Part shown: positions 30,572 through 64,000 of the stretch, piece by piece | Layout of the letters: each line of letters begins with the position of its first letter | How positions within the stretch are numbered: position 1 is the stretch's first letter | DNA from: Amoebophrya sp. A120 | Lineage: Eukaryota; Protista; Dinoflagellata | Assembly: GCA_905178155.1 (NCBI GenBank) | Contig: CAJINV010000006.1 | Location: 4,641,795 to 4,705,794, forward strand | Reading direction: 5' to 3' | DNA length: 64,000 nt | Notes under the pieces: model-generated | What the model saw: the letters and a program-made list of their open reading frames with translations, nothing else | The model's database searches: none | Told to the model about the DNA's origin: nothing | Translations under genes and position numbers: made by a program

Positions 30572-31060
30572 AATGATGTGAGAGCAAGTAGATTTTTGCG
30601 TTCGCGCTCAGAATCAGATTCAAGAATGCAAAGCCATTTCTGATGCTTTTGAGTTTTGTTTCCGTTTCTCTACAACATGACATGATGTTTGAGTTGGAAT
30701 TAGGAATACCAAGAATATCATGTCTCCTCTCATGATAATTATCCTGCGGCGCTTTCGCTCCGTAGCAGTGGCAGCCACCGCTCTTAGATTCAGAAAGAGT
30801 GTTCGTCCGTGATCGTGTTTACTCAAAAAATGATCAACTACACGAAAGTATGAAAACGACACTTGCAGTTCTTCAAGAAACGATCCATCACGTCCTTGCA
30901 TGCATGCCATGTACTCTCGTTGAAAAAGTAGATGAAGGAAGATCGAACGGGCGTCGCGAAAGCGAATCGCGCAGCGTTTTTTTTTTTGCTTGACAAGCTC
31001 ACTTAGCAGATCTACAGTGATTTGCCTGTACAAGCATGATCGCTTGAATTACTCCAGTAA

Positions 31061-33110: not shown

Positions 33111-33714
33111 CTAAATCTCGACAATAGGCAGTTTTGGCTGGAGCGGCCAATTGTCCGGATTCAGATCGTGTTTGGATTTCAAAGCAAAGCGGCTGTGGTT
33201 CCTGGCATTAAACGTGAAAAACAGTACGAAGAGGCACAGAAAGCGTCGCGCCGTGCCATAGCTTGTCCTGCTGTTGTTGGTTTCAAAGTTGGGCGCGTCA
33301 CAGGTGCGCTCACAGAACAGCTCACTTTGAAGCCGTCGCGACCCTCTCGAATATGGGTCGCGCAAGTCTTTGGCAACTTGGTTGCAAGTTTCGATCTCCA
33401 TAAAATTGGGGGTCCGTTCCACCAGTAATTGAAATAGTGATGCTGCCACTTTGGAAGAACTTGAACTCCCGCTTAGTTGATCTCCTGTTGATTTAAAAAT
33501 TTTCACCATTCGCTTAGACGCCGTTTGAATTTTTACCAAAATCGTCAACTCGTCTCCAAGCAGCTTCTAGTACTACAACAGGCATAGCAGCAACCACAGA
33601 TGACATTTTGATCGAATGCGAAGTCATACAATTACAATTTTGAATTGCATAGATCCACCTCCAGCTCCAGCTCTCTACGACCTCTAGCCGGCAAAGCGGC
33701 CACCAAAGAAGAAG

Positions 33715-41189: not shown

Positions 41190-44100
41190 ATGGCTTGTGT
41201 TGCAATTTCACCTACATGTTGTTCAACACGACGAGGACCAGAAAGGAGAGTGTCTTCTTCCTTCCCCTTTCTCCTCCTCATAAATTTCTTCCACCACTTT
41301 CTCCTGAAACCCTCCAACGCCCAACAACAAGCGCAGCCACCACCACTCGCGCCATCCTCCATCCAACCACAAATAGAAGTACCAACACCAACAGGAGACG
41401 GCCAAGTAGATGCTGTGGCGGTTAGGGAAGAGGCGGAATCTTATGCCCAAATAAACCAGCAGAGCGTGAGCGCGGCGGCGGCTGCGAAGAGGAGTATTGT
41501 TAACAGGAATAGTAAACCAGAGCCCGGGACCACTCCTTCCTTCTCCAATCTTCAGCAACAAGTCGGGATAGAACAAAATAAAGCAAAATTACTGCACCAG
41601 CAGCAGGTTCATCTTCACAAAGAAGGAAATACGAAAGAAGAAAGTCTCGGCACCGGGGCCGTGATGCACCCGCGGCAGGACGGAAACGGATCGAAGTTTG
41701 AGAACAGGAACCAAAAGCCGTCGACCTTTTACGACGAGAGTGTGATAACGTCAATTGCGGATCTACATGGGGATTTCAAATCTGCGGTGGAAGCGTTATA
41801 GCAAATGCAAAAATGTCTGGGTCTGGAAAAATGCAAGGTTTGTCATGCTAGGCTAGCAGGACTCTCAAGTCTCTCATGCGCGTTACCCAAAAACATTTTT
41901 TTTCTGTGATGCAGAGTCGCAGTTTTTCATGCAGAATAGGCAACACTTGAGAAGCTCAGAAACTTGTCTTGCTGGGCTATCATTTGTGGCATCCTCATGC
42001 TACGTCACTCAGCATTACAAGTCTCCAGACCCAGACATTTTTGCATTTGATACGTTAAAACTGGCGAAAATCATGGACGACCAGTGGAACTTATGCATTG
42101 CAAAAGTATCGTGCTAGTGGTAGTAGTAAAACAAAAACTGCATTACAAACTTGCTTCGCATTACAAATGAAGTTTGTAATGCTGTTTCACCTTTACGAAG
42201 GACACTTGTCACGTATAAACAGCAACTACAACAACTACGAGTGCGACATTACTTTTGCAGAGCATAGAACTGGGTGGCGGGCAACAAAATTTTCATCCAA
42301 ACCGGGGATATTGTGGATCGGGGAAATAACGGGCGGGAAATTTACGATCTCATGTTCCGATTGCAAGATCAGGCGGAGAAGGTATTTCTAGATAGCGTTC
42401 TAACTTATTCATGCTTCTGACTGTGCATGACAGAGCCAACTCGACGTCTTCCAGAAAATCGCATGACAAATTTCAAGTTATGTGCTGAAGCCAAACAATG
42501 TGAAAGTGTAAGTCATTGATTGTTCTTTCTCTACACCTGAAAAATCAGGCCGGCGGGCGCGTCATCATGTTGTTGGGTAATCACGAGGCAATACGAATGC
42601 AAAATGACGTGCGATACCGGGGCCCGAAAGAGACTTCCTGGTCCTTGCACCCGAAAACAAACGACGATGACGCCAGGGGGATAAAAGCTTGGGCGGAGGG
42701 GGGTTGGTTGAGGACGGTATAGAATCTGATAGTTTTTTTTGGTAGTTGATTATGATTTCCCTGTGTTGGTACTTTGTGATGCTGATCCATGCATGAGAAG
42801 CAAGATTTGTGTTGCAGCACATCAAAGACAAAGTCGTCATCAATTTACGACGCTTAATCCTATCCTCAGGCACTGGAAAAACGTTCGTCCACCATGGCGA
42901 TTGCCGGCCGCTCACTCTACGTCCACGCAGCGTTGACCCTTTCCTACGCCAAAAAACTGGAATACGGAGTTCTCAAACGCTACATTCTCAACTGTTACAT
43001 GAATTTGTCATGCAAACCTCTCTTCAGTATCACTATCATCAAGCTGCTTTGCATGACAAATTTCCAAAGGGCTAAAGAGCCTCTAAATCTGTGCCGAATC
43101 TGAATCTGTAATGCAAAAGGCGCAATCTCTACCCTTGCATTTTTGCCATTGTTGCAATACAAATTCATGTACCAGTTGAGAGTGTAACGTTTGAAAACGC
43201 CATATGGAAACTATCGCCCAGGAATTCGACAGCAACGCGAATTTAGACACCCCCATGAGCCCGGAGCTACGGGAGAAAGTGTTTAACAAGTTTCACGAGA
43301 AGGTGGTCGAAGCGTTGCGGAGCCAGGACTTCCTAAATTTCTACGTATTGGATTTAGATAATTTTATTTGGCTGCATTTTACTGTAAAAAGTGTAGTCCA
43401 ATTCACATGACAAATACATTCGACTTTGCCTTGTATGCATGACAAGCTTCAATAAAAATAAAATCAGATCAACGACTACTCTCCCTTTTGGTCCCGCGAA
43501 TACGACTTGGAGTGCGCAGAAGCTGAGCGGGTTTTCAAATTTCTCAACGTGGACCGCATCATCGCGGGGCACACCCCTTTATCCTGTGCAAAAGTAACGT
43601 ACTACTGTAAATTGCAATACAACTTAGCTCAGCATTACAAATAAAATTTGTAATGCTGAGTAACAACTAGATTTGTAATGCATTATAACTGCAATTGCTA
43701 CGAGTGCGATGCTTTTGCAATGCATACCCGCAAACCGACGGCAGAATCGGCGTCGGATGTGACGGGAAAATCGTGCTGGCCGACACAGCCATGAGCATCG
43801 CGTACCGCCAATCGTTTCCGAAAGGGCAGGTCAGTGTTTTGACGATAGCGGACTCCGTGCCGGAAGACGGAAAGGAGACCGTCGTGCAGGCGCTGTACAA
43901 AGACCAAGTAATGGAGTTAGAGAAACAGGCCGGGCACTGGGGATCCTGGGCCAGTGTGGTGGACCCAAACATGGTGAAACAGATGCAGGAGCGCGACCGG
44001 AAAATGAAAAACGTGCGTGGGGGTAGCAGCAGTAGCAGCAATAGCGGTAGTGCGGGTACTGGTACAGCTTCTTCTACCTCCAACGGAGCAGAAACAACAC

Positions 44101-45793: not shown

Positions 45794-47620
45794 ACGCGAT
45801 GTTGTCCTCCGCCGCGGGGTTGATGCGCGAGCACGCCGCCGCGGAAGGTCCCATGGAGCCGCTATGGCGTTCGCTGGTTGTTGCTGCCGACGGGCGGACT
45901 TGCGGGCCAGCCTCGGGCTACATCTCTGGTTGCCGTATTGCGCAAGTGAGCGACCGACCCCGGGCCGGCGCCGTAGCAGCTGAAAGAGTGCAGGCTGCCG
46001 AAAGTCGGCGGCCGCCTTGTCCTCCCGCCCGGCGGGCACGGTGGGGGCGGTCAGCCCCCTGCCCCCGCGTCGCGTCCGGCGTGCAGTGGGGCAATGCTTC
46101 CCGGCCCCTTTTCTAACTTCTTGGGCGGCCCCAGCGCTGTGGCGCGCCCGTGCGGCCCCTTTGGTGTCTGACGTTGTGCCCCCTGGATCCCGTTTCCGGG
46201 GTGGGCCGCCCTGTTGATTGGAGCGAGTGAGCGCAAGCAAGCTCGGGCCGAACGGGCAGAAGCTAACTATCTAGCGCATGTTCTGCGGCCTTTGTTTTGT
46301 GACTGCCGTTCGTTGCCGTGCCGGGGCGCGCGTCCGGGCAAGCAAGGTTTGTCTGGCAGCTGCGTTGCAGGCCGTGCCTGCCTAAAAACCCACCGCCCCC
46401 CTCGATGGGACGCCACAAGGAAGACCAGATCAGACGTGTGTGGTTCGCAGCTCTGGCAGGCCTTGGCGCCGGGGCGTATCGTATGTGTTGTGTGCATCTA
46501 TACTTACATTGTTCTTTGGCATCGGGTGTTCGCGTTTCTTTTTTTCTTGACATCGTATGGTCATTGCAGAGTGGTGTTAGCTACACGAGACTGGTCGTCA
46601 GGAGTTCGACGGCTTCCTCAAGAGGAAGAGCAAGGTCCGAGTGCAGCCAAGTACACAGACCGCCAGCACTTCTGAAGCCAATAGAGATGTGGGCGGCCGT
46701 TGTATGAGTCGCATAAATTTGAAACGAGAGGAAGAGAGGACGTAGACGATGACGTAGGCTAGTAGGGGTTGTCAGATAAAGAAGTAGAACTTACTACCAA
46801 GAAAAACTGAGGCGATACAAAAATGGAAACGATAGCACCAAACGAATAACCGGAGCGAGTCTTCCAAAAATGGGCGCTGTTTCTTTGTGCGCGTGGCGCG
46901 CAGGCCCTGCATGCGAGGGGCGACTGTGTCAGGGGCCACGCCTTCCGTGTGCTTCTCTGTGGCTGGCCCCTAGAAGCGTAGCGCCAATGCTTTCGGGGTC
47001 GTGTGTAGTGGGCAGGCCTCTGCCCGTGTTGCCAGCTCGGCCGTTCGTTGTTCGCTGGTGGAAGCGTTGGCCGCGCCTCGCCAGCGATTGGCCCAACGGA
47101 AGGCGGAGGCCGTTCGCCCGACAGTGATGATGGCGATGAAGAAACTCACGGGCGGCGAAAAGCTGGCGGGGTCAGAGGCGAGCGGCGCGCCCTCTCTTCC
47201 TTTTTGTCGTTGCTCATCAGCGAGGCTGGCAGGCGACGCCGCCGGGGGGGAAGGCGCGCGGCCGGGCAGGCCGCCGCCGCGCGCCCGTATTCCTATTCTT
47301 CGGCGGCCGGGCCTTGGTTGCCCCGCCCCCGCCCCCCCCTCGTAGCTCCGGCCGGGGCGGCTCGCGTTCTCCGTGCCCCCCAGACCTAGCGGCAGCCAGC
47401 CGGGCCCCGGGTTGCTGCTCGATCGGTTTTGGCGGCGCGAAGACGCATGGGTTGGATAGGCCTAGCAGGGAGGGAAGCCAGCGCGCCCACGCGCGCTGCG
47501 TCTTGCAGCAGCTATGCCTCCGCGGAGAACAGATGGTCCGCGCGCGTGCAAGAATGCAAGCAACTTGCGGCCGCCGCCCCCGGCCGGTGGCACGGCTTCC
47601 GTCTCTTGGGATATATCGAC
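45794..47620. other. Two GC-rich islands interleaved with duplicated SANBR upstream/start fragments
   Basis: 45794-45831 resembles 48162-48199; 46515-46634 resembles 47681-47801. Confidence 0.7.
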
Positions 47621-48169
47621 TAGTATGATTAAGCAAGGGCTGTTGCCCACAGGTGAGTTTTGGTGCCGTGGTGTGTCTTATTTGGCGTCGTGTGTTCGCT
47701 TTTCTTTTTTTTGTTTATTTTGTCGGATGGACATTGATGATTGCGGAGTGGTGCATGCTACACGACGAGACTGTAAGAGTCACTTGCTCCGCAAGAGCAA
47801 GCGAGGTACCATAGTTCTCAGTGATCTTGTTGCCAATATCACGTCTTCGGCCCCAGTTGCAGGAAAGTGAGTTTTTCTTTGTAGAAGTGCCTTACTTTGA
47901 GTCAGTTTGTGTGTACGGTGAGTGCGTGTGGCTGCGGCGACACATTGCTGACGAGATGACGTAGCTCAGGTCCGAGAGGTTCTTTGTGTGTTATGATTCG
48001 CATGCTCAGTACCAGGAAATAGGAAGTTCAGGTAGGTGGGATCTAACATTCTGTTCCTGTGCCTCCTGTCCCTACTTCACATTACTTAGTTTTCAACAGG
48101 CTATTGCGGAATATATTTTTCAGTGTTGTGTAGTCAGTTTCTGTACCACTCGAAATCCAAAACGCGAAG

Positions 48170-51100
48170 ATGTCCTCCGCCGCGGAGTTGATGCGTGAGG
48201 AGATGCTGCACCAGCAGCGGCAGCAGAACCAGCACTCCAAATCCGGTAGCTCGACTTCGCACTCAACCTCGAGAAACACCGCTGGCGCAGCTGCCGGCGG
48301 CTCTTCTTCCTCTTCCACAGCTAATGGAAATAATCATGGAGCCGCAGCATCTTCATCCACAGCTATCACCTCCTCTTCCTCCTCCAACAATATCGCAATC
48401 TACGTCTTCGACGAAACCACGAACCAGTCCCGAAACTTTCAGTGCAAACAGGATGTGTTGTTAAAACACATGAAATACTTCCGAAGCTACCTAGCTGGTT
48501 CCAGCAAATCTTCCTCCAACACGACCACCCCAGAGGACGACATTAACGATGGAACGGGTAGTATCGCAAGAAAAAACTGCTTCACTGTAAACTTGTAATG
48601 TAGAAAATGCATCTGAGAAGTGTTTGTCTTACTACACATGCAAGACAATGGATTCTATAGCTGTGTTTCCTTTTAGGGATCTCGCATGGCAAATTTTCTC
48701 TGTGATGTAGAACAAACTTGTGATGCAGAACTTGCAAAGTCCTTACAGTGAAACACTTTTTTCATACGATATGTCGTAGTAAAAAACAACCACCAAACAA
48801 GCAGAAGAAAAAAAAGGACCAGCAGGAGCAGCAGGTGGAGATTTCTGTCCACTGTGACATCGGCGTTTTCGCCTGGCTGGTTCGGTACATGAGCAATCCG
48901 GAATTAATCGCGAGTACGAAATTGAACGCAAACAACGTCATCAGCATTTTGATTTCCGCGGAGTTTCTGCAGATGGAGTTGCTGGTGCGGCAATGTGTGG
49001 AATTTCTGGTGAACCCAGGAACAAGTGGCGGAGGAGGCGGGGGGAACAATCCGTATGCACTGCAAAAGCGTCGCGTCCCTGTTACTTGTAATATCGCATG
49101 ACAGATCTGCTTTCTGACCTACATTTGCATGGTAAATTTCACTTGTCTACGGCTTGCAAGAATTTGTCATGCGGTTTCCACTAGAACTAGAAGCAAGTAG
49201 ACCAACAAGCGTAGCCGTAGGAGCAAGACGCATTCTGCAATGCATAATCCGAATGCAGCCGGCGCACTCGTTCCCGGAACACAAAACTTTTCGACGTCGC
49301 CTACCGGAGGTGGGTCTGTCGCCGAGAGCGCGACTGGGGGAAAATTTCCGGCTCTGGATCAGGTAAGTGCGTGAGTTTCCTTCTCACCTTCACCTGATTC
49401 ATTTTCATGCCACTTTTGCATCACAAAATGAGTCTGCTACCTGCAGTACTTCCGCATGACATATTGGAAACAACATATACACCCTATCAGGTCCTGGCCC
49501 TTCCAATCGACCTGAACTGTTTGAATGAGGAGCTACTGGATTTCCTTTATCAAATGCAAAAATGTCTGGGTCTGGAAGGTTGCAACTTGTAACGCTGTCT
49601 TTGGAACGTAACAAAAATCTGTATTGCATGACCAGCAAGAGGAGCGCAGTTTGTGCTACGTCGCGGAGTGGGCGTTTCTCATGCGGAATACGCATCAGAA
49701 GGCCCTTTAAAAATCTGTGATGCTATGTCATGCATTACAGGCATCACGGGTTATGCAAAATATGCATGACAAACCTGGCAATCTTCCAGACCCAGACATT
49801 TTTACATTTGATATCCTTTGCGATAAGCTCAAAGTCGAGGAATTGGACAAAATCGTTGATAACGAAGACAAACTGGTCTACAAACTCTACGACGTTATGC
49901 ATTGCAGAAGTATCGTACTCGTATAAAAATAAATTGCAGCACTGCATGACAAATCCATTATACAATCTCGAAGCAGCATGACAAATTTCACTTTCGTTTT
50001 GCCGAAATTTTTGATGCTGTTTTCACTACTACGAAGATGCAGATGCTTTTGCAATGCATAGACGTGCATTTGAAACGGTTGCTGAACAGCAGTCCCGAGC
50101 TATCCAAGAAAAAAACTGTGTTAGTGTAACTTTGTGTTGCAGAAAGTGCAAAGGTGTCACACTTGTCATGCTGGACATGCATCAGAGGCAACTTTCGTAC
50201 GTGTTTTCACGTACTAGCTGCGCATGACAGGTTTTCTGTGTCATGCAGAACAAACTTGTGATGCTATTCCTCCAAGAAACTTGCACTTACAGTTACACAC
50301 TTTTCTTCCTGGATACGAGCTTTTCCGCTGCGTCTTCTGCCGGGAGCTGTTTTCCCTGGTGATGCCCGGAGCTGGGGTTAGCAAGGCGAAAAAGCTCCTG
50401 CTTGGGGGCGGTGGAGGAGGTAGTAGTGCTGGTTCTTTAGCAAGAAGCAGGAGTCGAGAAAACGAAACAAGGAACGCCGGGGCTGGTACAGCAAGTTCGC
50501 CGCAAAGAAGAGGCAGTGCAACTGCCGGTGGTTCCTCATCTTCCTCGTCCAGCAGCTCGTCTTCTAGTTCGTTGAGAAACAGCACTACTGCCGGAGCAAA
50601 AGTCCCGACTCGATCTCTCAAAGAACTGCAGCTCGCGTCGAGGAAAATCATGAAGCAGAATCAGCAGGAGAAGAAGTTACAACAAGACACTTCCAAACAA
50701 GACCACGAGGAGTTCATGAAATGCCCGAAGGCAGAAATTTTCATCGACTTCAACGGCAAGGTGATCGCGCAACACGTAAAAGACCGCGATTTCGACTTCT
50801 ACGACTACGCGGAGTACGAAAAGCAGAAACGGTTGAATTCCAGCTCTGAGCAGCATGGCGGTTCCAGCCTGAAAAAAACGAAGATGCGGGATTTGTTCTG
50901 GTCGGTCTTCGGAAAGTTGAACTACTTGAAGTGCAAGCACTGCGACAAAACACTCTCTCTGTCTACTTTTGCGGAGGGGTTGAATTGTTGGTATCATCCG
51001 TTGAAGCCGGGTCAGAGTCAAACGGCGCTGAGAAGTGGAGGTGACAGCAACGTCGTGTCTTCCACTTCTAGCGAGTCGGAGGACATTCTGTGTGGTGCGG

Positions 51101-53415
51101 TAGACGGTACAACTGGGGTAGTACTGGCAACGACATCTTCTGCGACAAAAATTGTCGACCCAGTCACCGGCGAATTGATCGTTGGACCCAGCTCTACTTC
51201 TTCTACGCAAACTGCGGTCCTCCTGAAGGGCAACAGGATTGTCGACAATGTGTATCCTTGTTGTGGCCTACCAGTAGTGAAGTTCAACCCAACCGGATCC
51301 TGAGTAAAAACGTACCCACACCAGAGTTGTCATGCGACTTTGCCATGACAGGAACATTTGTGATGCGCAACCCCATGACAGGCATTTTCAATCGTGTTTG
51401 GGAACTTGTAATGCTGTAAACAGGATCAGCAGATCGATTTGTGATGCGGCTTTCCTTGCTAACTTGCACTACCTCACGGACTGAAACTTGTCATGCGTGA
51501 CTCACAAAACTCCTAGGTTTGTGTTGCAAAATCCCCATCCTGACTCTGGTGTGGGTACGTTTTTACTCAGGATAAGCCGGATCTTCGGTGCGGAAACTGA
51601 GTAAAGCGAAACAACAGATGGACCATTATGACGGCCGGAACAGCGATAGTAGCAGCAACAACAACCGCGAGCTCGGGTGCAGAGTTCGGGACCACGAGCC
51701 GTTGTCGGTTTACTCGACGACAACAGGCGGCGGCTCTGGCTCGTCTGGGGAGGAGAGCATGTTCCACCGAGGGAGTTCGGAGCAGGAGAATTCAGTAGGC
51801 GCCGGAGGTGGAGAGGATCAGGACCAGGAAGTGGATGAGCATCAGGCGTTTTTAACAACTGTCTTATCCTCCTACGGTGGGATCATGAACACCTCAACCG
51901 ATTGGTGGACGAGGGATTTGTATGCAATGCAAAAGCATCGTACGAGTAAGTAAAAATTGCATTACAAATTTGCTCAGCATGATGACAAATGCAGTTTGTA
52001 ATGCTGTATTACGTTTGGAGGAAGATTTGTCACGCAGATTTGCAATTAGTACGAGTGCGATACTTTTGCAGTGCATAATTTGAGGCCACGGGGGATGGCG
52101 GAGGAGGATGAAGATGCAATGGTGTTGGATGATGATGATGTAGACCTCGACCTCTCTATCCTGTGCAAAAGTATCGCACTCGTATTGCAGTCATGCATTA
52201 CAAATCTTTTGCTTAAGGTAAATCCGCATTACAAATTTTATTTGTTTCTCATGCTGGGGAAATTTGTAATGCATTTATACGAGTGCGATACTTTTGCAAT
52301 GCATAATCTCCGCAGCGCAACAGCAACTCCGGGCGTCCTCGGGAAATTACAGAAATAAAGGGATGTATGGAGCAGGAAGTGTTGGGAGCAGTCATCAGCA
52401 CGCGTGGGGAAGCTCGTCGTCAAACCACATGGGCACGTATTTGCAGGGGGAGCAACGTATTGGTTTTAGATTTGGTTGCTTCATCTCGAAATTTCTCATG
52501 CACGTGTCTGTAACGCATGCTACTCCCAAGTACGACATCCTGCATGACAAATGTACATCAGTTGTTTCCATTTCGCGCTAGAACACAAAAAACCCATTAC
52601 TATCAGTCTACCACCCCCGTTGCAGCTTTGACCGAGCGTATTGTTTCGAGCCACTCCCCGAATACGCCCCGCCATTACGCGGGAGCAAGATGATAGCAGC
52701 GGCAAGTAAGAAACTAGCACAGCAACAGTTCCTAGGTGGTGGTACCAGACACGGCAGCCAGTCCCGGTCCAGGTACCAGCAACAAATCATCGGCAACAGC
52801 TTCGGAGCACCAAAACGCGGATCTTCTTCCTCCGCCGGTTACGGGTACTCCTCCACGATGTCTCTAGTTCACGGTCAACCGCAATACAACCAAACGACGT
52901 TTTTTGATTTGAAGTTCCCGGGGACAAATCGGAGACAGCGGGACCAAAGGCTGGACATGTTGAGGGAGGACGATAAAAGGCGGCTGGAGATCATGATACG
53001 AAAGCAGAGGAACCACCGGATGCATGCCATGCAAAGGAGCATGAACGCAGCTGCAGCTCTGGCTGCGAAGAGGGGAAAATTGAACAGAGCCGAGTTGAAT
53101 GCTGACCAAGCAAGCGGCGGAACAGGAATGTTAGCCAACAACAACTCACCGGATGCTGGGAATGCGAAAAGGAAGAACAAGAGTGGCACGCTGAAAGCAC
53201 AAAACCAAAACACGACTCTGCTGAATAGCAATTCGTCCAGTAGCGTCGTTGGAAACAACAGCAACAAAACGCGGGCCAGTGGTGTCGCTAGTACCGGAGC
53301 ATCAAACGCTAGCAGTGCGAAGCTGCAACAAGGCTATCGGAAATCGCGCATGGTGATGGGCACTGGGGCGATTCGGCCGACCAGCGCGGGTGGGTCGGGA
53401 ACGATGCGGAGGTGA
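48170..53415 (+). CDS. SANBR: SANBR/KIAA1841-like BTB (DUF3342) protein
   Basis: IYVFDETTNQSRNFQCKQDVLLKHMKYFRSYL, ISVHCDIGVFAWLVRYM, NNVISILISAEFLQMELLVRQC, LFRCVFC, LREDDKRR match the family as I recall it; 8 elements and 2 GT-AG introns. Confidence 0.8.
48562..48771. mobile_element. Introner, family D (degenerate)
   Basis: DR GGTAG/TGTCG. Confidence 0.8.
49054..49246. mobile_element. Introner, family B (degenerate)
   Basis: DR ATCCG. Confidence 0.88.
49363..49490 (+). other. GT-AG intron (another in this gene: 52437-52625)
   Basis: GTAAGT..CAG; ATCAGGT is repeated across both junctions. Confidence 0.75.
49548..49813. mobile_element. Introner, family A
   Basis: DR TCCTT. Confidence 0.9.
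49896..50060. mobile_element. Introner, family B
   Basis: DR GACGT. Confidence 0.9.
50101..50315. mobile_element. Introner, family D
   Basis: DR CGAGC. Confidence 0.9.
51296..51574. mobile_element. Introner, family H (TATCCTGAGTAAAAACGTACCCACACCAGAGT TIR)
   Basis: About 31-nt perfect TIR; first base G instead of T; DR AACCG/AGCCG. Confidence 0.88.
51921..52077. mobile_element. Introner, family B
   Basis: DR ATTTG. Confidence 0.9.
52157..52305. mobile_element. Introner, family B
   Basis: DR CTCTC/ATCTC. Confidence 0.88.
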
Positions 53416-54156
53416 TAAGCATTTTTTGCTTTTGCCTTGTCCTCTGAAAGACCACTATCTTCTTACCAGTACATGCAGCTCCTTAGATAGATTATGACTG
53501 TGATTCTGTTCTTCAGTTCAGTATTGATGAGTTCTTCGTTATTTACAGCGCCTCGATGTTCTTGACAGCACGACATGATCTCATGAAAATGTATTGGAAA
53601 AATATTGGGGTAAAACTAAAATTGAAATCCGCCAAACTTCGCACCATTTGTTGTTCTGCACCCATTGATTGTGGGGTTGGAGTTGTGATCAGGTGATTGA
53701 CAACATCGAGATCACACCGATCAAGACTAGCACCAAATGAGCGGATCAAGTGAAGTAGATTGTGATCGTAGCTTCGCGGTCCACTGCTGAAAGAGTTTCA
53801 CTTTCACCTAAGTTTCACACCCAGAGATGGATCCACCCGGACTGACGATTCTGAAGCTCAGACGCTTTTAGCGTGCTTGGTCTGATTCTGATCTATCATC
53901 TTGAAGATCATCTCTCCTTCACGACCAGGCACAAGGACGACCCGTGTTTTTATTTCGGCACATTCGATAGATAGGTGTGTTACCAGTAGAAAACGTTTCT
54001 CATCACGGATACGGTAGCATATTTCGAACCCTGATTGTCAAGCGCATCAAGAAGACACGTCTTCCCCTGGAAAGGTTTTCAACGAAGAAGTTCCAATCAT
54101 CTATGCAGTCTCAATAGTAAACCTGAAGTAATCTCCTATCCAACCCGCAACAAATC

Positions 54157-56040
54157 ATGGCGCCGCCCCCGGCCGGAGTTGACCAGCAAGCAGCTGGTGA
54201 CCGCATCAACCAGCACACCGAGAGCGACCACCCGCAAGAAAAAGCGGAAGGAAAGGCAGAGCAGAAGCCGCAAAACGATTCGGAACATCAACCGCAGCTT
54301 CGTCACAAAACCTGGAAGGCCCGGCCGAAGCGTTGCGTTTCCAACGACACATTGCAGAAGAACAGCTTGATGACACCAACCCAGAGGTACGAACTGTCCA
54401 AAAGCCTCCCGATTCCGGAGCGACAGGCGCTGATATCGTATTTAGAAACGTCCCCACCTCAGAGTTGTAATGCAAATCTGCATGCTCAGAATGTTTATCA
54501 TTCGGAGCCCCATGAGCAGCATTTCCTCGTCGTGTTTTGAAGTTTGTGATGCTCCAATCTGCATGATATACTAGATCTGTGATGCTGCTGAGCTAGCTCG
54601 AACAGCACTACTCTACGAGTCCGAATTTGTCACGCGAAACAGCCAAAGCCTGTGGATTTGTCTAGCCGATTCCCCATCTTGACTATGGGGTAGAGACGTT
54701 TTTACATAGGATAGCTGATCGTGAAGACGTATGTGGAGAATTTCAAATTTTTCCTCCAGAACGAAGGGAAGTGTTTGAAGTGCTGCTTTCTGCACGAGTA
54801 CTGTATTTGTGGCGAGATGGAGAAGCTGGCGAGAGGACCGGCGGAATTATGTCCTGTTGAGCAGGGTGAGGAAAAAGATGTAGCGACGTCCGATACGGAA
54901 GAGCCGGGAGGGGAAGGAATAGTACAAATCGCGAAGTCCTCAACAGCTCCAGCTACAGCTGTGCCATCAAGGGGGCCACCTCCTGTCGTTTCTATCCCGA
55001 ACATTTCCTCTGCTTCCGCCTCTACTTTCCCCACGAGGGTATCAACTTCAACTCCAAGAACGACCGCGCCTGCTAGCCCCACGACGACCAGTACTTGTAG
55101 TACCAGCGAGAGCGACCCGTCTTTATCAAGAAAACAGGAAAACGAAACAAGAAACGACCAGCAAGACAACCACTACATCCAGCTCCAGCCCCGTTTCCTC
55201 CTGTGGATGCACTACAAGGAGCAATTCCGCGCCTCCAACACGGGGAAGCTGCTTTGTCAGCTGTTCGACAACTCAGAAACTTTCGTCCACGGGCACCCGG
55301 TGGAGATGGAAAGGTTTGAGAAAAAAGTCAGGGAGTCGAAGCTGAAAACGTTAGTTCTGTTCCCGACGGAGAACGCTGTGGACGCGGATAAATTGACGAT
55401 GGGAGATTTGCGCGCTAGTGTTTGTGATCATGTAGGACAGAAACCGCAGCAAGCGCAGGCAGAACCAGAAGCGCCAGTAACAACAGGGAGTGATCATGCT
55501 CATGCACAGTCTGCAACACAAACAACGGCTGCAGATCACTTGTCGCAAGACTTCCTCAACATCGTCGTTCTTGACGGGACTTGGACCCAAGCGAGGAAAC
55601 TTTTGAAGTCTATTTTTCCAAAGAACAAGACACAAAAACAAGCATCTGAGGAGGATCGATCAGTAAGGACAGAAGACGACGCTACGACCGTTGTGGAAGC
55701 CACGACCGGCGATCATGTTGACACGTCAAGCCGCATGTCAACCACAAACAGCAAATTTCTCTTCGTGAAAATCAATCCCCAGGAGCTTTCCCGGTTCTGC
55801 TGCCGCCGACAAACCCAGCCAGACCGGATTTGCACCGCGGAGGCGGCGGCGATGCTGCTGCAGGAGCTGAAGTGTGAGAAAAAAGCGGTGGACAATGTTT
55901 ACAAAGGGTTGAAGATTCTTTGTACCAGCATGGATAAGCAGTCGCATAAGGATACGATGAAGTACGTGGCACCCACGAAAAATCACGTCGGAAGGAACAG
56001 AATGCAAAAAAATGTGTTTGGAAAACAGGCTTTCGTGTAA
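54157..56040 (+). CDS. DTWD2: DTW-domain tRNA-uridine aminocarboxypropyltransferase (DTWD2/TapT-like)
   Basis: CLKC..YCIC zinc motif, HYKEQFRASNTGKL, LVLFP, VVLDGTWTQARK, ICTAEA; one element (54434-54713). Confidence 0.85.
54434..54713. mobile_element. Introner, family H-like
   Basis: DR GCTGA. Confidence 0.88.
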
Positions 56041-56499
56041 TTTGCGTGCTGATCATTTTAGAAGCCCTTCTTGCGCGACACAATCATACATAAAACGGTA
56101 TTTTTTTTTACCCAAAATTTAAGTGCGACCAGCTGAAATCGTCACTCGTCTTTCCTTGGTTGTTCAGCTTGTTTTTCACCATGCGAAAAATACATCACGA
56201 GGAGCCGTGGATCATGAATAGTCTGCGTCTGCTGGTGGACGAGAGAGGGCATGTTCGGTGTGAGAGCTAGTACTTAGGCGGGTTCTCGACCGTGAGTTTG
56301 TTCAGGATTGGTGTTTGAGGTGATGCTACTTGAGGAGCGAAGATGCACTAAAATTTCTAGTTGCGAAGTGGAAAGTGTTGCACTCTTCGATAAAGGAAAG
56401 CAGAAGCTAGAAATGCCCCACTACGTAGAACTAGTGCAGCTCCGCCGTCCCTGAATCTGCGGTCTACACCATGTCCGACTCCTTTCCATCAAACCCGAA

Positions 56500-56881
56500 T
56501 TTGTACCAGCATGGATAAGCAGTCGCATAAGGATACGATGAAGTACGTGGCTATCAAGTGCAAAAATGTCTGGGTCTCGAAGAATGCATGTTTGTCATGC
56601 TTGTCTGGCATGACTCTTAAATCTGTCATGCACGTTACCCAAGAGCCCCATTTTTCTGTGATGCAGAAACGCAGTTTGTCATGCAGAATAGGCAACGCCT
56701 GGAAGTTCATAAACTTGTCATGCTGGTGATCCAGCATTTGTGGCCTCATCATGAGACGCCACCCAGCATCACAAGTTTCCAGGCCCAGACATTTTTACAT
56801 TTGATAGTGGCACCCACGAAAAACCACGTCGGGAGGAACAGGATGCAAAAAAACGTGTTTGGAAAACAAGCTTTTGTCTAG
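56500..56881 (+). pseudogene. Duplicated 3' end of the DTW gene carrying an introner
   Basis: Encodes the same CTSMDK...KQAFV* peptide as 55921-56040 once 56552-56806 is removed; no in-frame upstream sequence. Confidence 0.8.
56552..56806. mobile_element. Family A element in the duplicated DTW 3' end
   Basis: DR GTGGC; the empty site with a single GTGGC is at 55966-55970. Confidence 0.95.
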
Positions 56882-56945
56882 GCGGACTGATGTAACAAGT
56901 CAGAACGGGCTACTGCGACGCAATGATAAATAAACTGCTTCTTGT

Positions 56946-59398
56946 AGTTCTTCTACTCCAAGCTACCACAACGTCAGGTGCTTCACCGTGATGTTGGTGA
57001 TGTTGTTCAACTTTACGAATTACGATAGCATTAGCAAATTATTTTAGAGTTATGCTTTTTTAGAGGTTCGTATCGCGTAGAGGTTCGTATGGGGAGGGCT
57101 AGCTGAGAAGGATAGAGAATCTCGATTTCGATATCTGTTTGCGTATCGAGGTTTCACAGCGTTAGCGCTCGTTGTTCGATTGGCTAAAGCAACACACAAC
57201 ACCAAACAGATTCCACAGTTGGGGCAAAGGATGGGGTAGTGGAGTAGGTAGCTTAGATGTCCACTACGCCTGATGCCCCAACAGACTCAACGACATTCTT
57301 TATCTGTTACTAGCTTGCTTGTTTTTTGGCGGGGTTAAAAAAGAAGGGCAAAGATAAAGATGTCGCTAGGGCGTGATTCCTAATGTTCAAGAAGGCCTTT
57401 TTACGTTGAGACCTACTTCTTTACAAATGGACCCAAAAAAGGAGACCTAAGGTTCGGGTGTGAATTTCTTCACCCAGCTTCTGTTCCCTTCCTTGAGTTG
57501 CTGTGGTGTTGAAGTTTACACCTATGCTCGACTGTGCAAGAGGGTTTTTGCCTTACCCCTCTAAGGTCTCAGGAATCACGCTGCCACACTGTTTCCAAAC
57601 CCACGCCGACACTACCAAAAAGACTTTTTGATATAGAATGAAAAAGCCACAAAGAAGCATGCTGTAGGGGGAAGGGAAAAGGCTTGCAGCTACTCAAAAA
57701 GCGCGGCCAAGCATATCAGAGGGCTTGCCTGGGGGCAGTTTCTGAATTCTTGCCGCGCTCGTGTATTTTTTATATCGTAGTATAGACGTAGAAGAGCAAG
57801 GGCGCGATTTGGTCGGCAACTGCCCCCTTCTCTGCCTTCCTCCCGCAGCAATACTTCCAAAAAGAGCCTATGCACAGCCAACATTCCGCCGCGCCCAGCC
57901 ATGCATGTCGCGGCACTTCGACTTCCCAAAGGTTGCTTCTTCAAAACTCGCAAGTGTGAATTGAGATTTCCCGACCTTTAGGCTTAGCATTTTAGGCGTG
58001 AGGGGCGGGGCAGTGGGCCACTAGGAGGAACAGGTACAGAATCACCACCGAAAATGGGAGTGTGCTGCAGCCTTCGCGTTACATTACCTCGGTTGTCGAC
58101 TCCCACACTCAGCTGGGGTGGAGTTCTTCTACTCCAAGCTACCACAACGTCAGGTGCTTCACCGTGATGTTGGTGATGTTGTTCAACTTTACGAATTACG
58201 ATAGCATTAGCAAATTATTTTAGAGTTATGCTTTTTTAGAGGTTCGTATCGCGTAGAGGTTCGTATGGGGAGGGCTAGCTGAGAAGGATAGAGAATCTCG
58301 ATTTCGATATCTGTTTGCGTATCGAGGTTTCACAGCGTTAGCGCTCGTTGTTCGATTGGCTAAAGCAACACACAACACCAAACAGATTCCACAGTTGGGG
58401 CAAAGGATGGGGTAGTGGAGTAGGTAGCTTAGATGTCCACTACGCCTGATGCCCCAACAGACTCAACGACATTCTTTATCTGTTACTAGCTTGCTTGTTT
58501 TTTGGCGGGGTTAAAAAAGAAGGGCAAAGATAAAGATGTCGCTAGGGCGTGATTCCTAATGTTCAAGAAGGCCTTTTTACGTTGAGACCTACTTCTTTAC
58601 AAATGGACCCAAAAAAGGAGACCTAAGGTTCGGGTGTGAATTTCTTCACCCAGCTTCTGTTCCCTTCCTTGAGTTGCTGTGGTGTTGAAGTTTACACCTA
58701 TGCTCGACTGTGCAAGAGGGTTTTTGCCTTACCCCTCTAAGGTCTCAGGAATCACGCTGCCACACTGTTTCCAAACCCACGCCGACACTACCAAAAAGAC
58801 TTTTTGATATAGAATGAAAAAGCCACAAAGAAGCATGCTGTAGGGGGAAGGGAAAAGGCTTGCAGCTACTCAAAAAGCGCGGCCAAGCATATCAGAGGGC
58901 TTGCCTGGGGGCAGTTTCTGAATTCTTGCCGCGCTCGTGTATTTTTTATATCGTAGTATAGACGTAGAAGAGCAAGGGCGCGATTTGGTCGGCAACTGCC
59001 CCCTTCTCTGCCTTCCTCCCGCAGCAATACTTCCAAAAAGAGCCTATGCACAGCCAACATTCCGCCGCGCCCAGCCATGCATGTCGCGGCACTTCGACTT
59101 CCCAAAGGTTGCTTCTTCAAAACTCGCAAGTGTGAATTGAGATTTCCCGACCTTTAGGCTTAGCATTTTAGGCGTGAGGGGCGGGGCAGTGGGCCACTAG
59201 GAGGAACAGGTACAGAATCACCACCGAAAATGGGAGTGTGCTGCAGCCTTCGCGTTACATTACCTCGGTTGTCGACTCCCACACTCAGCTGGGGTGGAGT
59301 TCTTCTACTCCAAGCTACCACAACGTCAGGTGCTTCACCGTGATGTTGGTGATGTTGTTCAACTTTACGAATTACGATAGCATTAGCAAATTATTTTA
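56946..59398 (+). repeat. Tandem repeat, period 1176 bp (A101-B1075-A-B-A)
   Basis: Units start at 56946, 58122 and 59298; identical by eye, and the ORF track shows identical ORFs 1176 apart. Confidence 0.95.
57047..58121 (+). ncRNA. Candidate structured RNA (unit B; second copy 58223-59297)
   Basis: Multiple nested stems with G-U pairs in the + sense and no convincing ORF; family not recognised. Confidence 0.3.
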
Positions 59399-59756
59399 TT
59401 GATAATTCCAATTGACCGCAAGAAGGTTCTACTCATGACCAGTGGAATTTATTGGCTGAGCGATGTGAGAGGGAGAATGATCAGATTCAGAGCGAAAGCT
59501 AGCTCCTGCTGCAGAAGCGCTCGGTCGATTCTTCAGGACTGGTGTTTGAGGTCGAGGAGCGATGCGTCAGATATTCATGATGGACTAGGGTGTTGAGCAG
59601 GCTTTTTCGTCTAACTGTTGTTCGGTAACAACATGTGCACAGCAACATATAACTTCGAATTAGAGATCGCATGTAGAAGCTAGAACGTGTGCACCACACC
59701 GTGGTCGTCGTTCCTGACGCCGCTGCCATGTCCGACTCCTTTCCGTCAAACCCGAA

Positions 59757-60296
59757 AAGAGGCAGCGGGCCCCGTGCTTTTTCTTGGATTTCCCGCGCCT
59801 TTGTCGCGGAAGGTGTTCGCAGAATTTTAAGAAAAATTTGCCACGCTTTACAGAAATAAACCGAAAGCAAAACTTACCCAGAATCTGAAGAAAAATTTGC
59901 GGCGTTTCGCAGAAAATCAAACGCAAGACTTTCTCAGACTTCGAAGAAAAAACTGCGGCGCTTCACAGAAAATCGAAAGCAGTCCGCGGGGCAATTTTGC
60001 GCGCAAAAGACGCGCGGCCCCCGGGCTTCTTTTTTTGTGTTCTTTGCGCTGGAAAAAAAATTCAGAAAGCCCGCGCATTTTTCTTGCAATTTTTTCGCAA
60101 AAGCAGCGGAGTTTTTTGCTGTGTTTGTCCCTGGTTTTTACCGCGAATTTCTGCAAAAACGAAGCAAAATCTTCAAGCACCTAAAAAAAAGTGCGTTTTT
60201 TTGAACCGAAACACGACCTATTTCCATCGATTTTTTGTTGAAAAGCGGCACTTTTTGCCGTTTTCGCTGTGACTGTGACACAAGATTTCGTTTTCG
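59757..60296. other. A-tract/T-tract, CpG-rich island between two copies of the channel gene start
   Basis: Dense A4-8/T4-8 runs with CGCG; flanked by ATGTCCGACTCCTTTCCGTCAAACCCGA at 59728 and 60331. Confidence 0.75.
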
Positions 60297-60330
60297 TAGC
60301 TCCGCCGTCCCTGAAGCTGCGGTCTGCCAC

Positions 60331-63300
60331 ATGTCCGACTCCTTTCCGTCAAACCCGAGCCAGCCCTATCAAATGTAAAAATGTCTGGGTCTGGAAGAAT
60401 GCAACTTGTCATGCTAAATCTGAAGCATGCGAAAATCTGTGTTGCATGAGTGCCAAAAGCTGTCCACTTTCGACAAAGTTGGGAGGGAGTTTCTCATGCA
60501 GGATAGGCATCAGAGAGACCTCACAGACTCTGTCATGCTAGGTCCCGCATTCCAGACCTCAAAGGTCATGGAAAGGCAGCACGACAAATCACGAATTCTT
60601 CCAGACCCAGACATTTTTACATTTGATAAGCCCATCACAACCCCCACTTCACACCAAGCCCTCGACCGCCGGCAATCCCGCCCCTCGCTTGATCGAAAGC
60701 AGTCCCGGGCCTCAGTTGACAGGCGGTTTTCGAATTCCAATTTGAATGCCGCACTCGCCGGGAACACCGCGATCAATGCCGGCACGACAGTGGCGACGGC
60801 TACCACCAGTCCCGCACCGAGAAGGACCCTCGGCCGGGCGTTTTCGACGACCGATGTACCGGTGAGTCGGAAGGGAAGCAACTTCTTTTCCGATGGTGGA
60901 CCTTCTGGGGGAGTGGAGGGAGGCGATATTGTTGGGGGGCTGGCAACTACGGGTAGCAATGTGCCCGGCGGTGGACGAAGAATTACCACGACTGCGGGAG
61001 GAGGACAGGCGAGGTACTGAAACAGCAATCGCGTTGGAAATCATCGGGTTGTTCTTGTTTTTGCAATGCAAACGTAAACCTGTGATGTACGACCATGCAG
61101 ATGAATTTTTCATGATTGAAACACTGCCCCCTGCTCCTGCTCCAAACTCACTGTATTACATGAAAACCTCTCTCAGAACCCTCGGCCGCGCGCAGACCCT
61201 GGCTTTACCCGGCCGGGACCCGCTCGAAAGGTCCGGCTCAATGGCGGATACGAGCTATCCAGGAAAAAAAAACCATCACCATCCATTTTTTGCATGACAA
61301 GAACTGCAATTTATGCACGTTTTGCATGACAAATTGGATGGGGATGCGTGTTTTTCCTGGATACCAGCGGGGATAATTCCCCAACCGTCGAGGTTCCCGC
61401 GTCGGATAGACGAAAATCCTTTCTCGCCCCCACGCTTGGCGGCCTGCCCGGCTTAGATAACGCCAGTATGGAGACGTTGATGCAGATTCACCAACTACAG
61501 CAAATCCAGCAAATGCAGAAGAACAAAGTCTCAAACCAACAAACGGGTGCAGGGAATGCTGGGTCGTCGCATCACGGCGTGGATTCGGTGGATTTGAACT
61601 CGGACGACTTCGATTACACAGGGATCGTCGGGTATGGGCAGGACGGGAATTTGCTGCTAGAACCCTCGAAATGGACGAAGTACAAGCTGTATCTGTGGCT
61701 CTTCCTCGAGGAACCGTTCGTGAGTCCGGCAGCGAGTGTGGTACTTATGTACTTCTGTAGCTAGTACAGGTGTTTGTCATGCAGAGTTTGCATTTTATTC
61801 GACTATGTTTGTCTTGCACGAAATGCATGCCGAGATGTCGTCCGTGGCCAAGATTAGACCAGAAACCGTACACCAGGTGTCCTACATCATCGTGATCCTA
61901 ATTGGCCTCTCATTCGCGATGTCTGCGGCTGAACAGCAATACCACAACTATGCTCTGCAAAAGTATCGTACTCGTACTAATTGCAGTTATGCATGACAAA
62001 TCCTGTCTCTTAGCCAAATCAGCATTACAACCCCCATTTCTCCTTCTGAGAAAATTTGTATTGCGAGTTTATACTAGTACGATGCTTTTGTAATGCATAA
62101 CAACGGCGGCACCACCATTGATTTCGACGTCTTCTACAAAACACCGAATTTCGGCACCTACGCGCGGTTTTTCATCGTGCTGCTTTTCACTCTATCAACT
62201 GTAAAAATGTCTGGGTCTGGAACATTCCGACACTTTTCATGCACGTTTTGCATGAGCCCTGATGTCTGTGATGCATGCCCTAGCATCACAGATTTTTTCG
62301 GAGCTTCTTGATGCCTATTCCGCATGACAAATGCCCTCTCCGCGTAGCAAAAATTACATTGCTTTTGGTACTCATGCAATACAGATTTTTTTGGAATCCA
62401 AATGCAGCATGACAAGTTGCATTCTTCCAGACACAGACACTTTTACATTTGATACACTCTAGAAGCTTGCCTCCGGTTTGCCATCGCGCCGCAGCGGAAG
62501 CAGTTTTGGTTCCAGCCGAACAACGTCGCGGATATCATTTCGGTTTTGCTATCCTGTGCAAAAGTATCGTACTCCCACTCGTAGTTGTATATTGCAATCA
62601 TGCATTACAAATTTTTTCGTTTTCCCTAAGGTCAATCTGCATGACAAATTCGATTTCTCAACATGGTGAGGAAATTTGTAATGCAATTCATGCTAGTTGT
62701 GCGATGCTTTTGCTTTTGCTATTCATATTTGCCCTACTGGTGCAACAACGTTTGCCAGCTCCACGAGAACCTTTCCGTCTACTTTCACGTGATCAGCATC
62801 TTCAGCAGCTTCTTCTGGCTCTTGAAGTTAACCCGCTACTTCTCCGGCTGGTTCTTACTCAGCCGAGCCTTAACGGACGCCGGAAGAGCCTTGATGGTGC
62901 CCGTGTTTTTTCTCATGATCGTCGTCATGTGTGGAAGCTCACTGTTGTATCCAGGAAAAAATACACATTCTCATCCATTTTTGGCATTACAAACACTGCA
63001 AATTATGCATGTTTTGCATGACAAATTGGATGGGGATGGGTGTTTTTTCATGGATATGCTGCTCCTCTTCGAGAAGGCGCATGCGGAAAACACGCCCGCG
63101 CCGGTAATTACTTCCACAACGGATGAGGAGGAGCTTTGCCCGGAGTTGTCCGATTGCGTCACGATAGATTCTCTCTTCAAGGCGATTCACTACACGATTG
63201 TGTCTGTCGTCTCCATTCAGATCACCGAGGTTTACGGGAAAGATGTCGCGAGTAACGGGGGGAGAGTGTGGTCGGTGATCATGATGTTTCTCGGTGTGAT

Positions 63301-64000
63301 CTTTCTCTCCATGCCGATCGCGATCGTCGGCACCAGCTTTTCGAAAACGTGGTTTGAACAGGACATTATCATAGTGGTCGAAAAAGTCCGGTCCAGAATG
63401 CGGCAGCAGGGGTACACGACGGACGATTTGCGGGAAGTCTTCAACGAACTAGACGAGGATGGATCCGGTTCGATTGAGTTCAACGAATTCAAACGGATGC
63501 TGGAGGCGTTTCACTTTTTTGGGTCTTTGGCCACTTGTCGGAAGCTATTCAACCACTTCGACTGCAACGGAACCGGGTCGATTTCGTACCAGGAGTTTGT
63601 TTGCGGAATTTTCCCCGAGATCATAGACGTAGATGAATTGCTGGAGTATGATGAGGAGTTGGAACATATCAGAGGAAAAAGTGGTAACGTAAACGGAATT
63701 TGTGATGTAGAAAATGCATCACAAAACGTGCCCAAGTTTGTCATGCGTAGCATGCATACTAGGCAAAATCTGTCATGCATATTTGCAATCTATGGAAACC
63801 GTTAATGTTACCGCTTTTTTGTTTGATAGAACAGATGGAGAACGCGAAAAACTCTTCGGGGTCGGCGACGGCAAGTCTTTTTTCCGGAGAAGAGGAAGAG
63901 GATTGTTCCGACGATTCCGATTTCGACAGCAATGATGAAGACGAGGAGGGTGACAAATCTGGAGGTTCTTCCGACAGCGCGTCATTACCCTCTAGCAGCA
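60331..64000 (+). CDS. Kv-fold (6TM) cation channel with two C-terminal EF-hands; runs off the window
   Basis: LWLFLEEP, FTLEACLRF, NNVADIISVLPY, LLKLTRY, S6 LGVIFLSMPIAIVGTSF, EF loops DEDGSGSIEFNE and DCNGTGSISYQE; 7 elements and 2 GT-AG introns. Confidence 0.85.
60367..60628. mobile_element. Introner, family A
   Basis: DR AGCCC; about 34-nt perfect TIR. Confidence 0.92.
61014..61176 (+). other. GT-AG intron (another in this gene: 61741-61876)
   Basis: Frame restoration. Confidence 0.7.
61256..61363. mobile_element. Introner, family F
   Basis: DR CGAGC/CCAGC. Confidence 0.9.
61949..62099. mobile_element. Introner, family B
   Basis: DR ACAAC. Confidence 0.9.
62193..62454. mobile_element. 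Introner, family A
   Basis: DR CACTC; restores FTLEACLRF. Confidence 0.9.
62550..62727. mobile_element. Introner, family B
   Basis: DR TTTGC; restores ISVLPY. Confidence 0.9.
62948..63056. mobile_element. Introner, family F
   Basis: DR TGTTG/TGCTG. Confidence 0.9.
63667..63828. mobile_element. Introner, singleton M (TATCA..AAAAAGYGGTAAC TIR)
   Basis: DR GAACA; restores LEQMENAK. Confidence 0.88.

What the first reader, a model, noticed from the sequence alone, without database searches (positions are those of the whole stretch)
55919..56881. Filled and empty versions of the same site, with purely silent divergence downstream
Seen: the DTW gene has one GTGGC (55966-55970); its duplicate has GTGGC-element-GTGGC (56547-56811), direct evidence for a TSD. 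The 52 nt before the site are identical. The 23 codons after it differ at 8 positions, all silent (AAT/AAC twice, GGA/GGG, AGA/AGG, CAG/CAA, TTC/TTT, GTG/GTC, TAA/TAG). Inference: both 3' ends evolved under purifying selection, so the element-bearing copy was once functional and spliced, or is still an alternative end.
Basis: seen in the sequence. Interest (0 to 1): 0.8.

Follow-up and report, generated by a model that had tools for sequence, protein, structure and literature searches.

The report
Two diverged gene ends, side-by-side
In a marine parasite genome the last 40 codons of a gene sit twice in a row, once with and once without a spliced transposon-like intron and differing only at silent sites; sequencing runs hold the junction and both ends are transcribed, and the pair likely arose when recombination recently joined two long-separated working versions of the locus.

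Summary
The window is Amoebophrya sp. A120. Copy A is 55919-56499; copy B is 56500-59756 and carries the introner and a repeat array. Tails differ at 8 silent sites and no amino acid (neutral P at most 5e-5); the spacers are only ~72% alike. DNA contigs hold both copies at single-copy depth. RNA-type contigs show DTW mRNA using end A in one sample and, in another, a separate short contig that crosses the A/B junction with the introner precisely spliced. No contig joins the DTW body to end B, so 'alternative end' is unsupported. Best reading (0.55): two versions that each were functional in separate lineages were joined recently by recombination anchored in conserved coding ends; B is an orphan not yet decayed, likely transcribed from the copied channel promoter. 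Main rival (0.25): old tandem duplication with a selected 36-aa peptide. No outgroup was found, so donor and direction are open.

The parts
54157..56040 (+). DTW-domain gene, 532 aa, one introner (54434-54713) spliced out; uses end A
   Evidence: Spliced contig X3 54100-54428 + 54714-56129, 0 differences; Pfam DTW E=3e-26; 532-aa protein named as A120 gene model
55919..55970 (+). 52-nt core, copy A (ends in the single GTGGC, the empty site)
55971..56040 (+). Tail A, introner-free, used by the DTW mRNA
56041..56470 (+). Intergenic DNA A: DTW 3' UTR (contigs end 56098/56129) and a copy of the channel gene's upstream region
   Evidence: Homologous to intergenic B: global score 84.5 against 11.2 +/- 12.2 in 100 shuffles; 229 matches, 91 mismatches, 26 gap runs
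56471..56499 (+). Copy A of the K+ channel start (9 codons); 56499/56500 is the one new junction, out of frame with the DTW tail
   Evidence: junction in X1 contig 55941-56529 and in X5/X6 contigs
56500..56551 (+). 52-nt core, copy B (identical to A)
56552..56806 (.). Introner element, 255 nt, TAT...ATA termini, flanked by GTGGC at 56547-56551 and 56807-56811
   Evidence: precise 260-nt skip 56546>56807 in X5 and X6
56812..56881 (+). Tail B, 8 silent differences from tail A
56361..56975 (+). Short spliced transcript over the junction and end B (strand inferred, not shown); holds upstream ORFs of 13 and 15 aa and a 36-aa ORF from 56511 equal to the DTW C-terminus
   Evidence: X5 56361-56546 + 56807-56975 and X6 56369-56546 + 56807-56963, 0 differences; ORFs; the 36-aa product is in public protein sets as P0010
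56882..59727 (+). Intergenic DNA B (56882-56942 + 59399-59727) interrupted by a 1176-nt repeat in 2.09 tandem copies (56943-59398)
   Evidence: the array's copy number is not verified
59728..59756 (+). Copy B of the channel start; an upstream ORF of 43 aa inside the channel transcript
   Evidence: X5 contig 59662-60361 + 60629 onward
59757..60297 (+). 541-nt single-copy stretch with no clear likeness to spacer A or B; retained in channel contigs
60298..60628 (+). Working start of the K+ channel gene (ATG 60331) and its first introner (60367-60628); 61-nt block 56 of 61 identical to 56438-56498
   Evidence: Ion_trans (E=1.5e-6, at threshold) and EF-hand hits on a downstream exon

Best explanation
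Two versions of the DTW-end/spacer/channel-start segment lie in tandem, and they were likely joined recently by recombination between two long-diverged haplotypes in each of which its version would have been the working gene end. Shown: one new junction (channel start fused to the DTW core at 56499/56500); identical 52-nt cores; silent-only tails; ~72% alike spacers; DTW mRNA through end A; a separate spliced contig over end B. Inferred: pairing started in the short conserved coding anchors (DTW core, channel start), one joint was homologous and the other illegitimate, so the resident segment was kept beside the incoming one and not replaced. The most economical version is that the introner-free segment A was copied in by template switching or synthesis-dependent repair at or just before the introner, with the 52 nt duplicated from the target. 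The introner entered the B lineage after the split and was tolerated because it is spliced. B is now an orphan that is likely transcribed because the copied channel promoter sits in front of it. Both genes stay intact, so the event would be near neutral.
For: Tails: 8 of 8 changes silent. Depth of the split: silent-site distance 0.5-1.1 and spacers 28% mismatched at aligned sites. Recency: 0 amino-acid changes at about 98 non-synonymous sites of B bounds neutral decay at about 0.03 per site (95%); cores 0 of 52 different. The channel-start copies are also protein-identical (A/B 1 silent difference in 27 nt, P=0.0014 at the spacer's divergence) although A's and B's are now only upstream ORFs, as expected if each was once a working start. 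No second copy of A or B elsewhere in the genome: X1 contigs at depth 47.2 (A), 39.5 and 40.3 (B) against 42.7, 45.3, 44.4 for flanks, so any donor is gone or external. The B contig begins 102-110 nt before the copied ATG; the channel contig begins 66 nt before its first ATG. The B contig appears in the sample where the channel contig is deepest (X5: 57.4 and 40.1; X3: none and 5-10); contig depth is a poor measure of expression, so this is weak.
Against: No donor or outgroup was found: no close relative among 9 protein hits (best 36-38% BLAST identity) or in two metagenome scans (0 and 12 loci, all distant). Cai et al. [quoted passage not shown] Each direction needs a coincidence: if A came in, its right end falls at the same base where B's channel start departs from the working copy; if B came in, core identity is a 0.2-1.2% chance or needs conversion. 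The junction has no informative microhomology, so the repair pathway is not shown. B is transcribed and spliced, which the rival of a selected peptide also predicts.
Confidence: 0.55

Rival explanations
1. Old in-place tandem duplication that fused the channel promoter to the DTW tail and made a chimeric mini-gene; its 36-aa product has been kept by selection, and the 52-nt core was homogenised later by gene conversion.
For: The B transcript exists and is spliced in X5 and X6. An in-frame ATG lies 11 nt inside the duplicated unit; the 36-aa ORF is in public protein sets. No outside donor is needed. The tail is conserved in 5 of 8 aligned relatives. Two other loci in the window have decayed upstream copies of spacer + gene start, so local duplications are common. 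Chimeric transcripts from partial tandem duplications are known (PMC5460883, passages).
Against: Two upstream ATGs precede the 36-aa ORF and one ORF overlaps its start. The peptide lacks the invariant DGTW block of the domain. A search of 22-70 aa proteins returned 1 of 1 candidates, the window's own ORF (low power). It does not explain why the channel-start copies are protein-identical, and it needs a separate conversion event for the core.
Confidence: 0.25
2. End B is an alternative 3' end of DTW, reached by splicing out copy A together with the introner; use of both ends keeps both under selection.
For: Copy A is flanked by direct repeats and this organism splices non-canonical, repeat-flanked introns (PMC7789003, sections 11, 16). 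Both ends give the same protein.
Against: X3 and X4 DTW contigs pass the core unbranched into end A; the complete joint table has no body-to-B joint in 4 runs (2 samples, 1 study). End B is on a contig that begins in the spacer.
Confidence: 0.07
3. A mobile element with an att-like site integrated in DTW and brought a replacement 3' end, as prophage e14 does with icd/icdC.
For: Same layout: intact gene with one end, insert, orphan end with silent differences (PMC13626634, passages).
Against: The 529 nt between the cores are the homologous spacer, not element DNA; single-copy depth; no room for a recombinase, and no stop-to-stop frame of 100 aa or more lies wholly within 56084-56499.
Confidence: 0.06
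4. The donor was a paralogous copy of the two-gene neighbourhood in the same genome that has since been lost.
For: Explains the silent divergence without crossing a species barrier.
Against: No second copy at 90% likeness or more in X1; needs a loss soon after the transfer. The whole genome was not available, so copies below 90% were not searched.
Confidence: 0.05
5. Misassembly of two strains or haplotypes.
For: A 52-nt exact repeat is near common k-mer sizes. X1 may be the assembly's own sample; its contig has only 30 nt beyond the junction, 1 short of the tool's bridging rule. No long read was available. The neighbouring 1176-nt array shows a 7-nt discrepancy with X1.
Against: X1 contigs give two entries into and two exits from the core, with 55941-56529 linking exit to entry, all at flank depth, not half depth. 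Two RNA-type contigs from a second study cross the junction with 131-139 nt on the left and over 200 nt on the right, 0 differences.
Confidence: 0.02

Closest known systems
Amoebophrya A120 introner elements (Farhat et al. 2021, PMC7789003; outline, passages, sections 5, 11, 12, 16 read)
   Same: Intron with terminal inverted repeats starting TAT, short direct repeats at the exon borders, no coding capacity, spliced at non-canonical ends.
   Different: The sections read call the repeats 'reminiscent' of target-site duplications and show no filled/empty pair at one site; here both states sit 581 nt apart. Supplements were not read.
Chimeric genes from partial tandem duplication (Rogers et al. 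2017, Drosophila yakuba, PMC5460883; passages read; author name recalled)
   Same: A duplication that captures the 5' part of one gene and the 3' part of its neighbour leaves both parents intact and makes a new transcript with a shuffled promoter.
   Different: There the copies are young and near-identical; here the two units are deeply diverged in non-coding DNA yet protein-identical, and the fusion is out of frame.
icd / icdC at prophage e14 in E. coli (PMC13626634; passages read)
   Same: Intact gene plus a downstream orphan C-terminal fragment with mostly silent differences.
   Different: e14 is a 15-kb prophage with site-specific excision; here the insert is 529 nt of homologous intergenic DNA, with no element.
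One-sided invasion / template-switch repair giving templated insertions with target duplication (general knowledge, recalled; search listing only)
   Same: One homologous and one illegitimate joint, a short duplicated target, inserted DNA copied from a homologous locus.
   Different: The pathway is not shown here; the template would be a haplotype 0.5-1.1 silent substitutions away.

Membership tests
Amoebophrya introner element (A120 type) | Terminal inverted repeats of 8-20 nt or more, starting with TAT | tested here: met
   26 of first 30 nt complementary; TAT...ATA ends
Amoebophrya introner element (A120 type) | 3-5 nt direct repeat at the exon borders | tested here: met
   GTGGC on both sides; one copy in end A and in spliced contigs
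Amoebophrya introner element (A120 type) | Repeated in the genome | tested here: met
   82% to 41799-42052 over 257 nt; very high summed contig depth over the element in X1
Amoebophrya introner element (A120 type) | Removed from the transcript at non-canonical ends | tested here: met
   260-nt skip 56546>56807 in X5 and X6, listed ends GT..TA, 5 nt ambiguous; these runs are RNA by the tool's guess
Chimeric gene by partial tandem duplication | Unit joins 5' part of one gene to 3' part of another, parents intact | tested here: met
   Channel start at 56471-56499 joined to DTW core; both parent genes have spliced contigs
Chimeric gene by partial tandem duplication | Copies derive from one resident sequence and the orphan decays neutrally or starts identical | tested here: not met
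   Spacers 72% alike but orphan has 0 changes at about 98 non-synonymous sites
Chimeric gene by partial tandem duplication | In-frame fusion protein | tested here: not met
   Channel ATG frame stops after 15 aa
Integrative element with replacement 3' end (e14/icdC type) | Element DNA with a recombinase between the two gene-end copies | tested here: not met
   Insert is the homologous spacer, single copy
Introgressed or inter-haplotype segment | Each version exists alone as the working locus in some lineage | not testable with these tools
   No close relative; no whole genome
Introgressed or inter-haplotype segment | Orphan is young relative to the split | tested here: inconclusive
   Bound 0.03 against 0.5-1.1 per site holds only if B is unselected
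Alternative 3' terminal exon | Transcripts joining the gene body to each end | tested here: inconclusive
   Only end A in sample S2; sample S3 DTW contigs stop before the core

The most novel reading that the evidence does not exclude
Amoebophrya cryptic species exchange DNA, and because only short introner-free coding stretches still pair, the exchange leaves tandem scars in which both species' versions of an intergenic segment sit side by side. Such scars would be common (three loci in this 64-kb window have an upstream copy of spacer + gene start), would keep filled and empty introner sites in one haploid genome, and would create new promoter-fragment transcripts.
Probability: 0.25. Interest if true: 0.75.

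Novelty: new variant of a known kind. Interest (0 to 1): 0.45.

Why it matters
The pair gives direct in-genome evidence that the 5-nt repeat of A120 introners is made on insertion, and that an introner is still spliced precisely outside its host gene, which makes a compact natural minigene (355 nt spliced) for studying this unexplained splicing. If the best reading holds, it is a footprint of recombination between deeply diverged Amoebophrya lineages, which a k-mer survey reported to have little or no gene flow, and a genome-wide scan for such silent-only tandem ends would make that testable from one assembly. As a single locus it is a modest finding.

Tried and rejected
No whole genome was held, so no genome-wide count. 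Rfam scan of 53000-64000: 6 weak hits, all far below gathering scores. Raw RNA run X9: 168 reads, all partial and on introner copies; uninformative. No listed holder is on record as RNA; X3-X6 are RNA by guess, supported by their spliced contigs. In X5/X6 end A has no cover and DTW contigs stop at 55903/55894; this is not used as evidence. The 541-nt stretch 59757-60297 does not fold better than shuffles (z=-0.94) and shows no clear likeness to either spacer (scores 32 and 21 against shuffle maxima 31 and 34). 20254/21050 and 22229/29583/42271 repeats were looked at and are an internal protein repeat and paralogous genes by reading, not the same feature. Three look-ups of earlier findings returned nothing. 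Paper searches listed no description of such tandem diverged gene ends in Amoebophrya; only listings were seen for most hits. A retro-copy origin was rejected: copy A holds intergenic DNA, has no poly(A), and a copy of the resident mRNA would not carry silent differences.

Full report
Organism and context. The window is packed with short elements that have TAT...ATA inverted ends and 5-nt flanking repeats; a script that required those features found 39 (not an unbiased test of repeat length). This fits the introner elements described for Amoebophrya A120 (PMC7789003, section 11). The 532-aa DTW protein that I translated from the spliced gene matches in length a cluster member named as an A120 gene model. 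The best protein relatives are from strain A25 and AT5 at 35-36% identity.

The observation. All details hold: 52 identical nt, a 255-nt element between two GTGGC copies, and 8 silent differences in the last 23 codons. Eight random substitutions were all silent in at most 5e-5 of 200,000 draws. The differences avoid the core (0 of 15 against 8 of 22 degenerate codons, p=0.012). The tail is conserved in 5 of 8 aligned relatives and there is no alignment gap at the site in the three closest, so one GTGGC is the ancestral state and the second was most likely made on insertion.

The real unit. A 61-nt block at 56438-56498 recurs at 60298-60358 and, in part, at 59727-59755. It is the 5' UTR and first 9 codons of the next gene, a channel with Ion_trans and EF-hand hits. 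The 430 nt after stop A align with the DNA after stop B once the 1176-nt array is taken out (score 84.5 against 11.2 +/- 12.2, maximum 47.8, in 100 shuffles; 229 matches, 91 mismatches, 26 gap runs). So the locus is two tandem versions of [DTW last 40 codons, spacer, channel first 9 codons]: A 55919-56499 and B 56500-59756, then a 541-nt unrelated stretch and the working channel start. The three channel starts encode the same 9 residues with at most 1 silent difference.

Is it real? One search listed 11 runs, 8 holding part of the stretch, from 2 studies; I laid 6. In X1 the contigs 54664-55948 (depth 45.3) and 55941-56529 (47.2) both end 30 nt into a core copy, and the second begins inside the first core, which is the graph of a true two-copy repeat; B-side contigs have depth 39.5 and 40.3 and flanks 42.7 and 44.4, all with 0 other letters (tables were cut, 15,144 pieces and 145 joints not shown). 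Two mixed haplotypes would halve the depth of A and B. X1 may be the assembly's own sample, and its contig is 1 nt short of the tool's bridging rule. The second study removes the doubt: X5 and X6 (one sample) hold contigs 56361-56546 + 56807-56975 and 56369-56546 + 56807-56963 with 0 differences. The 1176-nt array is less sure: an X1 contig lacks 7 nt at 59365 and none of the listed pieces bridges the array's internal junction.

Expression. X3 and X4 (one sample) carry the DTW contig through end A to 56129 and 56098 without a branch. X5 and X6 carry end B on its own contig with the introner cut out precisely. The joint table has 2 rows and none joins the DTW body to B. Contigs show no strand; a sense transcript is inferred because it starts 102-110 nt before the copied channel ATG (channel contig: 66 nt before its first ATG), ends 82-94 nt after stop B (end A: 58-89 nt), and the public annotation holds the 36-aa sense ORF. 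The right end may only mark where the repeat array begins to branch. The transcript has upstream ORFs of 13 and 15 aa before the 36-aa ORF.

How it arose. The split between A and B is deep (silent distance 0.5 over all 40 codons, 1.1 over the tail), yet B shows no amino-acid change at about 98 non-synonymous sites and the cores are identical. If B is unselected it has been an orphan for under about 0.03 substitutions per site. An orphaning as old as the 5-in-61 difference between channel starts A and C would give about 4 replacements in B (P of none 0.017) and P=0.012 for an unchanged core. So either two working versions met recently, or B is still selected. The first also explains why the channel-start copies kept their protein sequence. 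No second copy of A or B shows in X1 depth, so the donor was another haplotype or is lost. I commit to recombinational repair between diverged haplotypes with one homologous and one illegitimate joint (0.55); pathway, direction and donor are inferred, not shown. Against it: Cai et al. [quoted passage not shown] The selected-peptide rival (0.25) is helped by the transcript but hurt by the upstream ATGs, the missing catalytic block and the lack of any other short homolog (1 of 1 candidates was the window's own ORF).

Generality. After masking introners, same-strand repeats within 8 kb show two further upstream copies of spacer and/or gene start: 18187-18801 against 19188-19843 (72%) and 45794-45831 against 48162-48199 (34 of 38). 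These have replacements and indels and could be ordinary old duplications; they do not test the model.

Comparison and verdict. The element is an ordinary A120 introner and meets all four features tested. The layout resembles chimeric genes from partial tandem duplication (PMC5460883, passages) and icd/icdC at e14 (PMC13626634, passages) but fails a defining feature of each. PMC12130899 (passages) treats A120 introners as transposon-derived with expected target duplications, so the TSD itself is not a surprise. My searches listed no report of tandem, silently diverged gene ends in Amoebophrya; supplements of these papers were not read and may bear on this. Real feature, new variant of a known kind, interest 0.45.

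Noticed in passing
window 56943-59398: 1176-nt unit in 2.09 tandem copies (99.9% alike) inserted in spacer B; multi-copy elsewhere by X1 depth (about 130-450) and partly present on longer RNA-type contigs (X5, 3895 nt); no long ORF; X1 lacks 7 nt at 59365, so the array may be imperfectly assembled.
   Followed up: partly
window 59662-60361: The channel transcript contains two copies of its own start; the first opens a 43-aa upstream ORF, and the 541 nt between them are retained in contigs. The shared 61-nt block begins at an AG after a pyrimidine run, which may be a splice acceptor.
   Followed up: partly
window 18187-18801 and 19188-19843: Tandem, 72% alike copies of a spacer plus the first ~25 codons of the next gene; the indels in the coding part look net in-frame.
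   Followed up: partly
window 45794-45831 and 48162-48199: Copy of the start of a BTB_SANBR-domain gene 2.4 kb upstream, with a GC-rich stretch and a weak internal pair (46512/47678) between.
   Followed up: partly
window 31000-33600: GC-rich stretch (57-65%) with short direct and inverted repeats and no obvious gene; not examined.
   Followed up: no
window 16024-16330, 16918-17224, 19913-20219: Near-identical introner copies (91-96%) within 4 kb, consistent with recent spread; related elements occur in both orientations in + strand genes (e.g. 60367-60628 against 62193-62454).
   Followed up: no
window 21600-24400, 29050-30570, 41200-43900: Three paralogous phosphatase-like genes by reading (not scanned), one apparently free of introners and two rich in them.
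   Followed up: no
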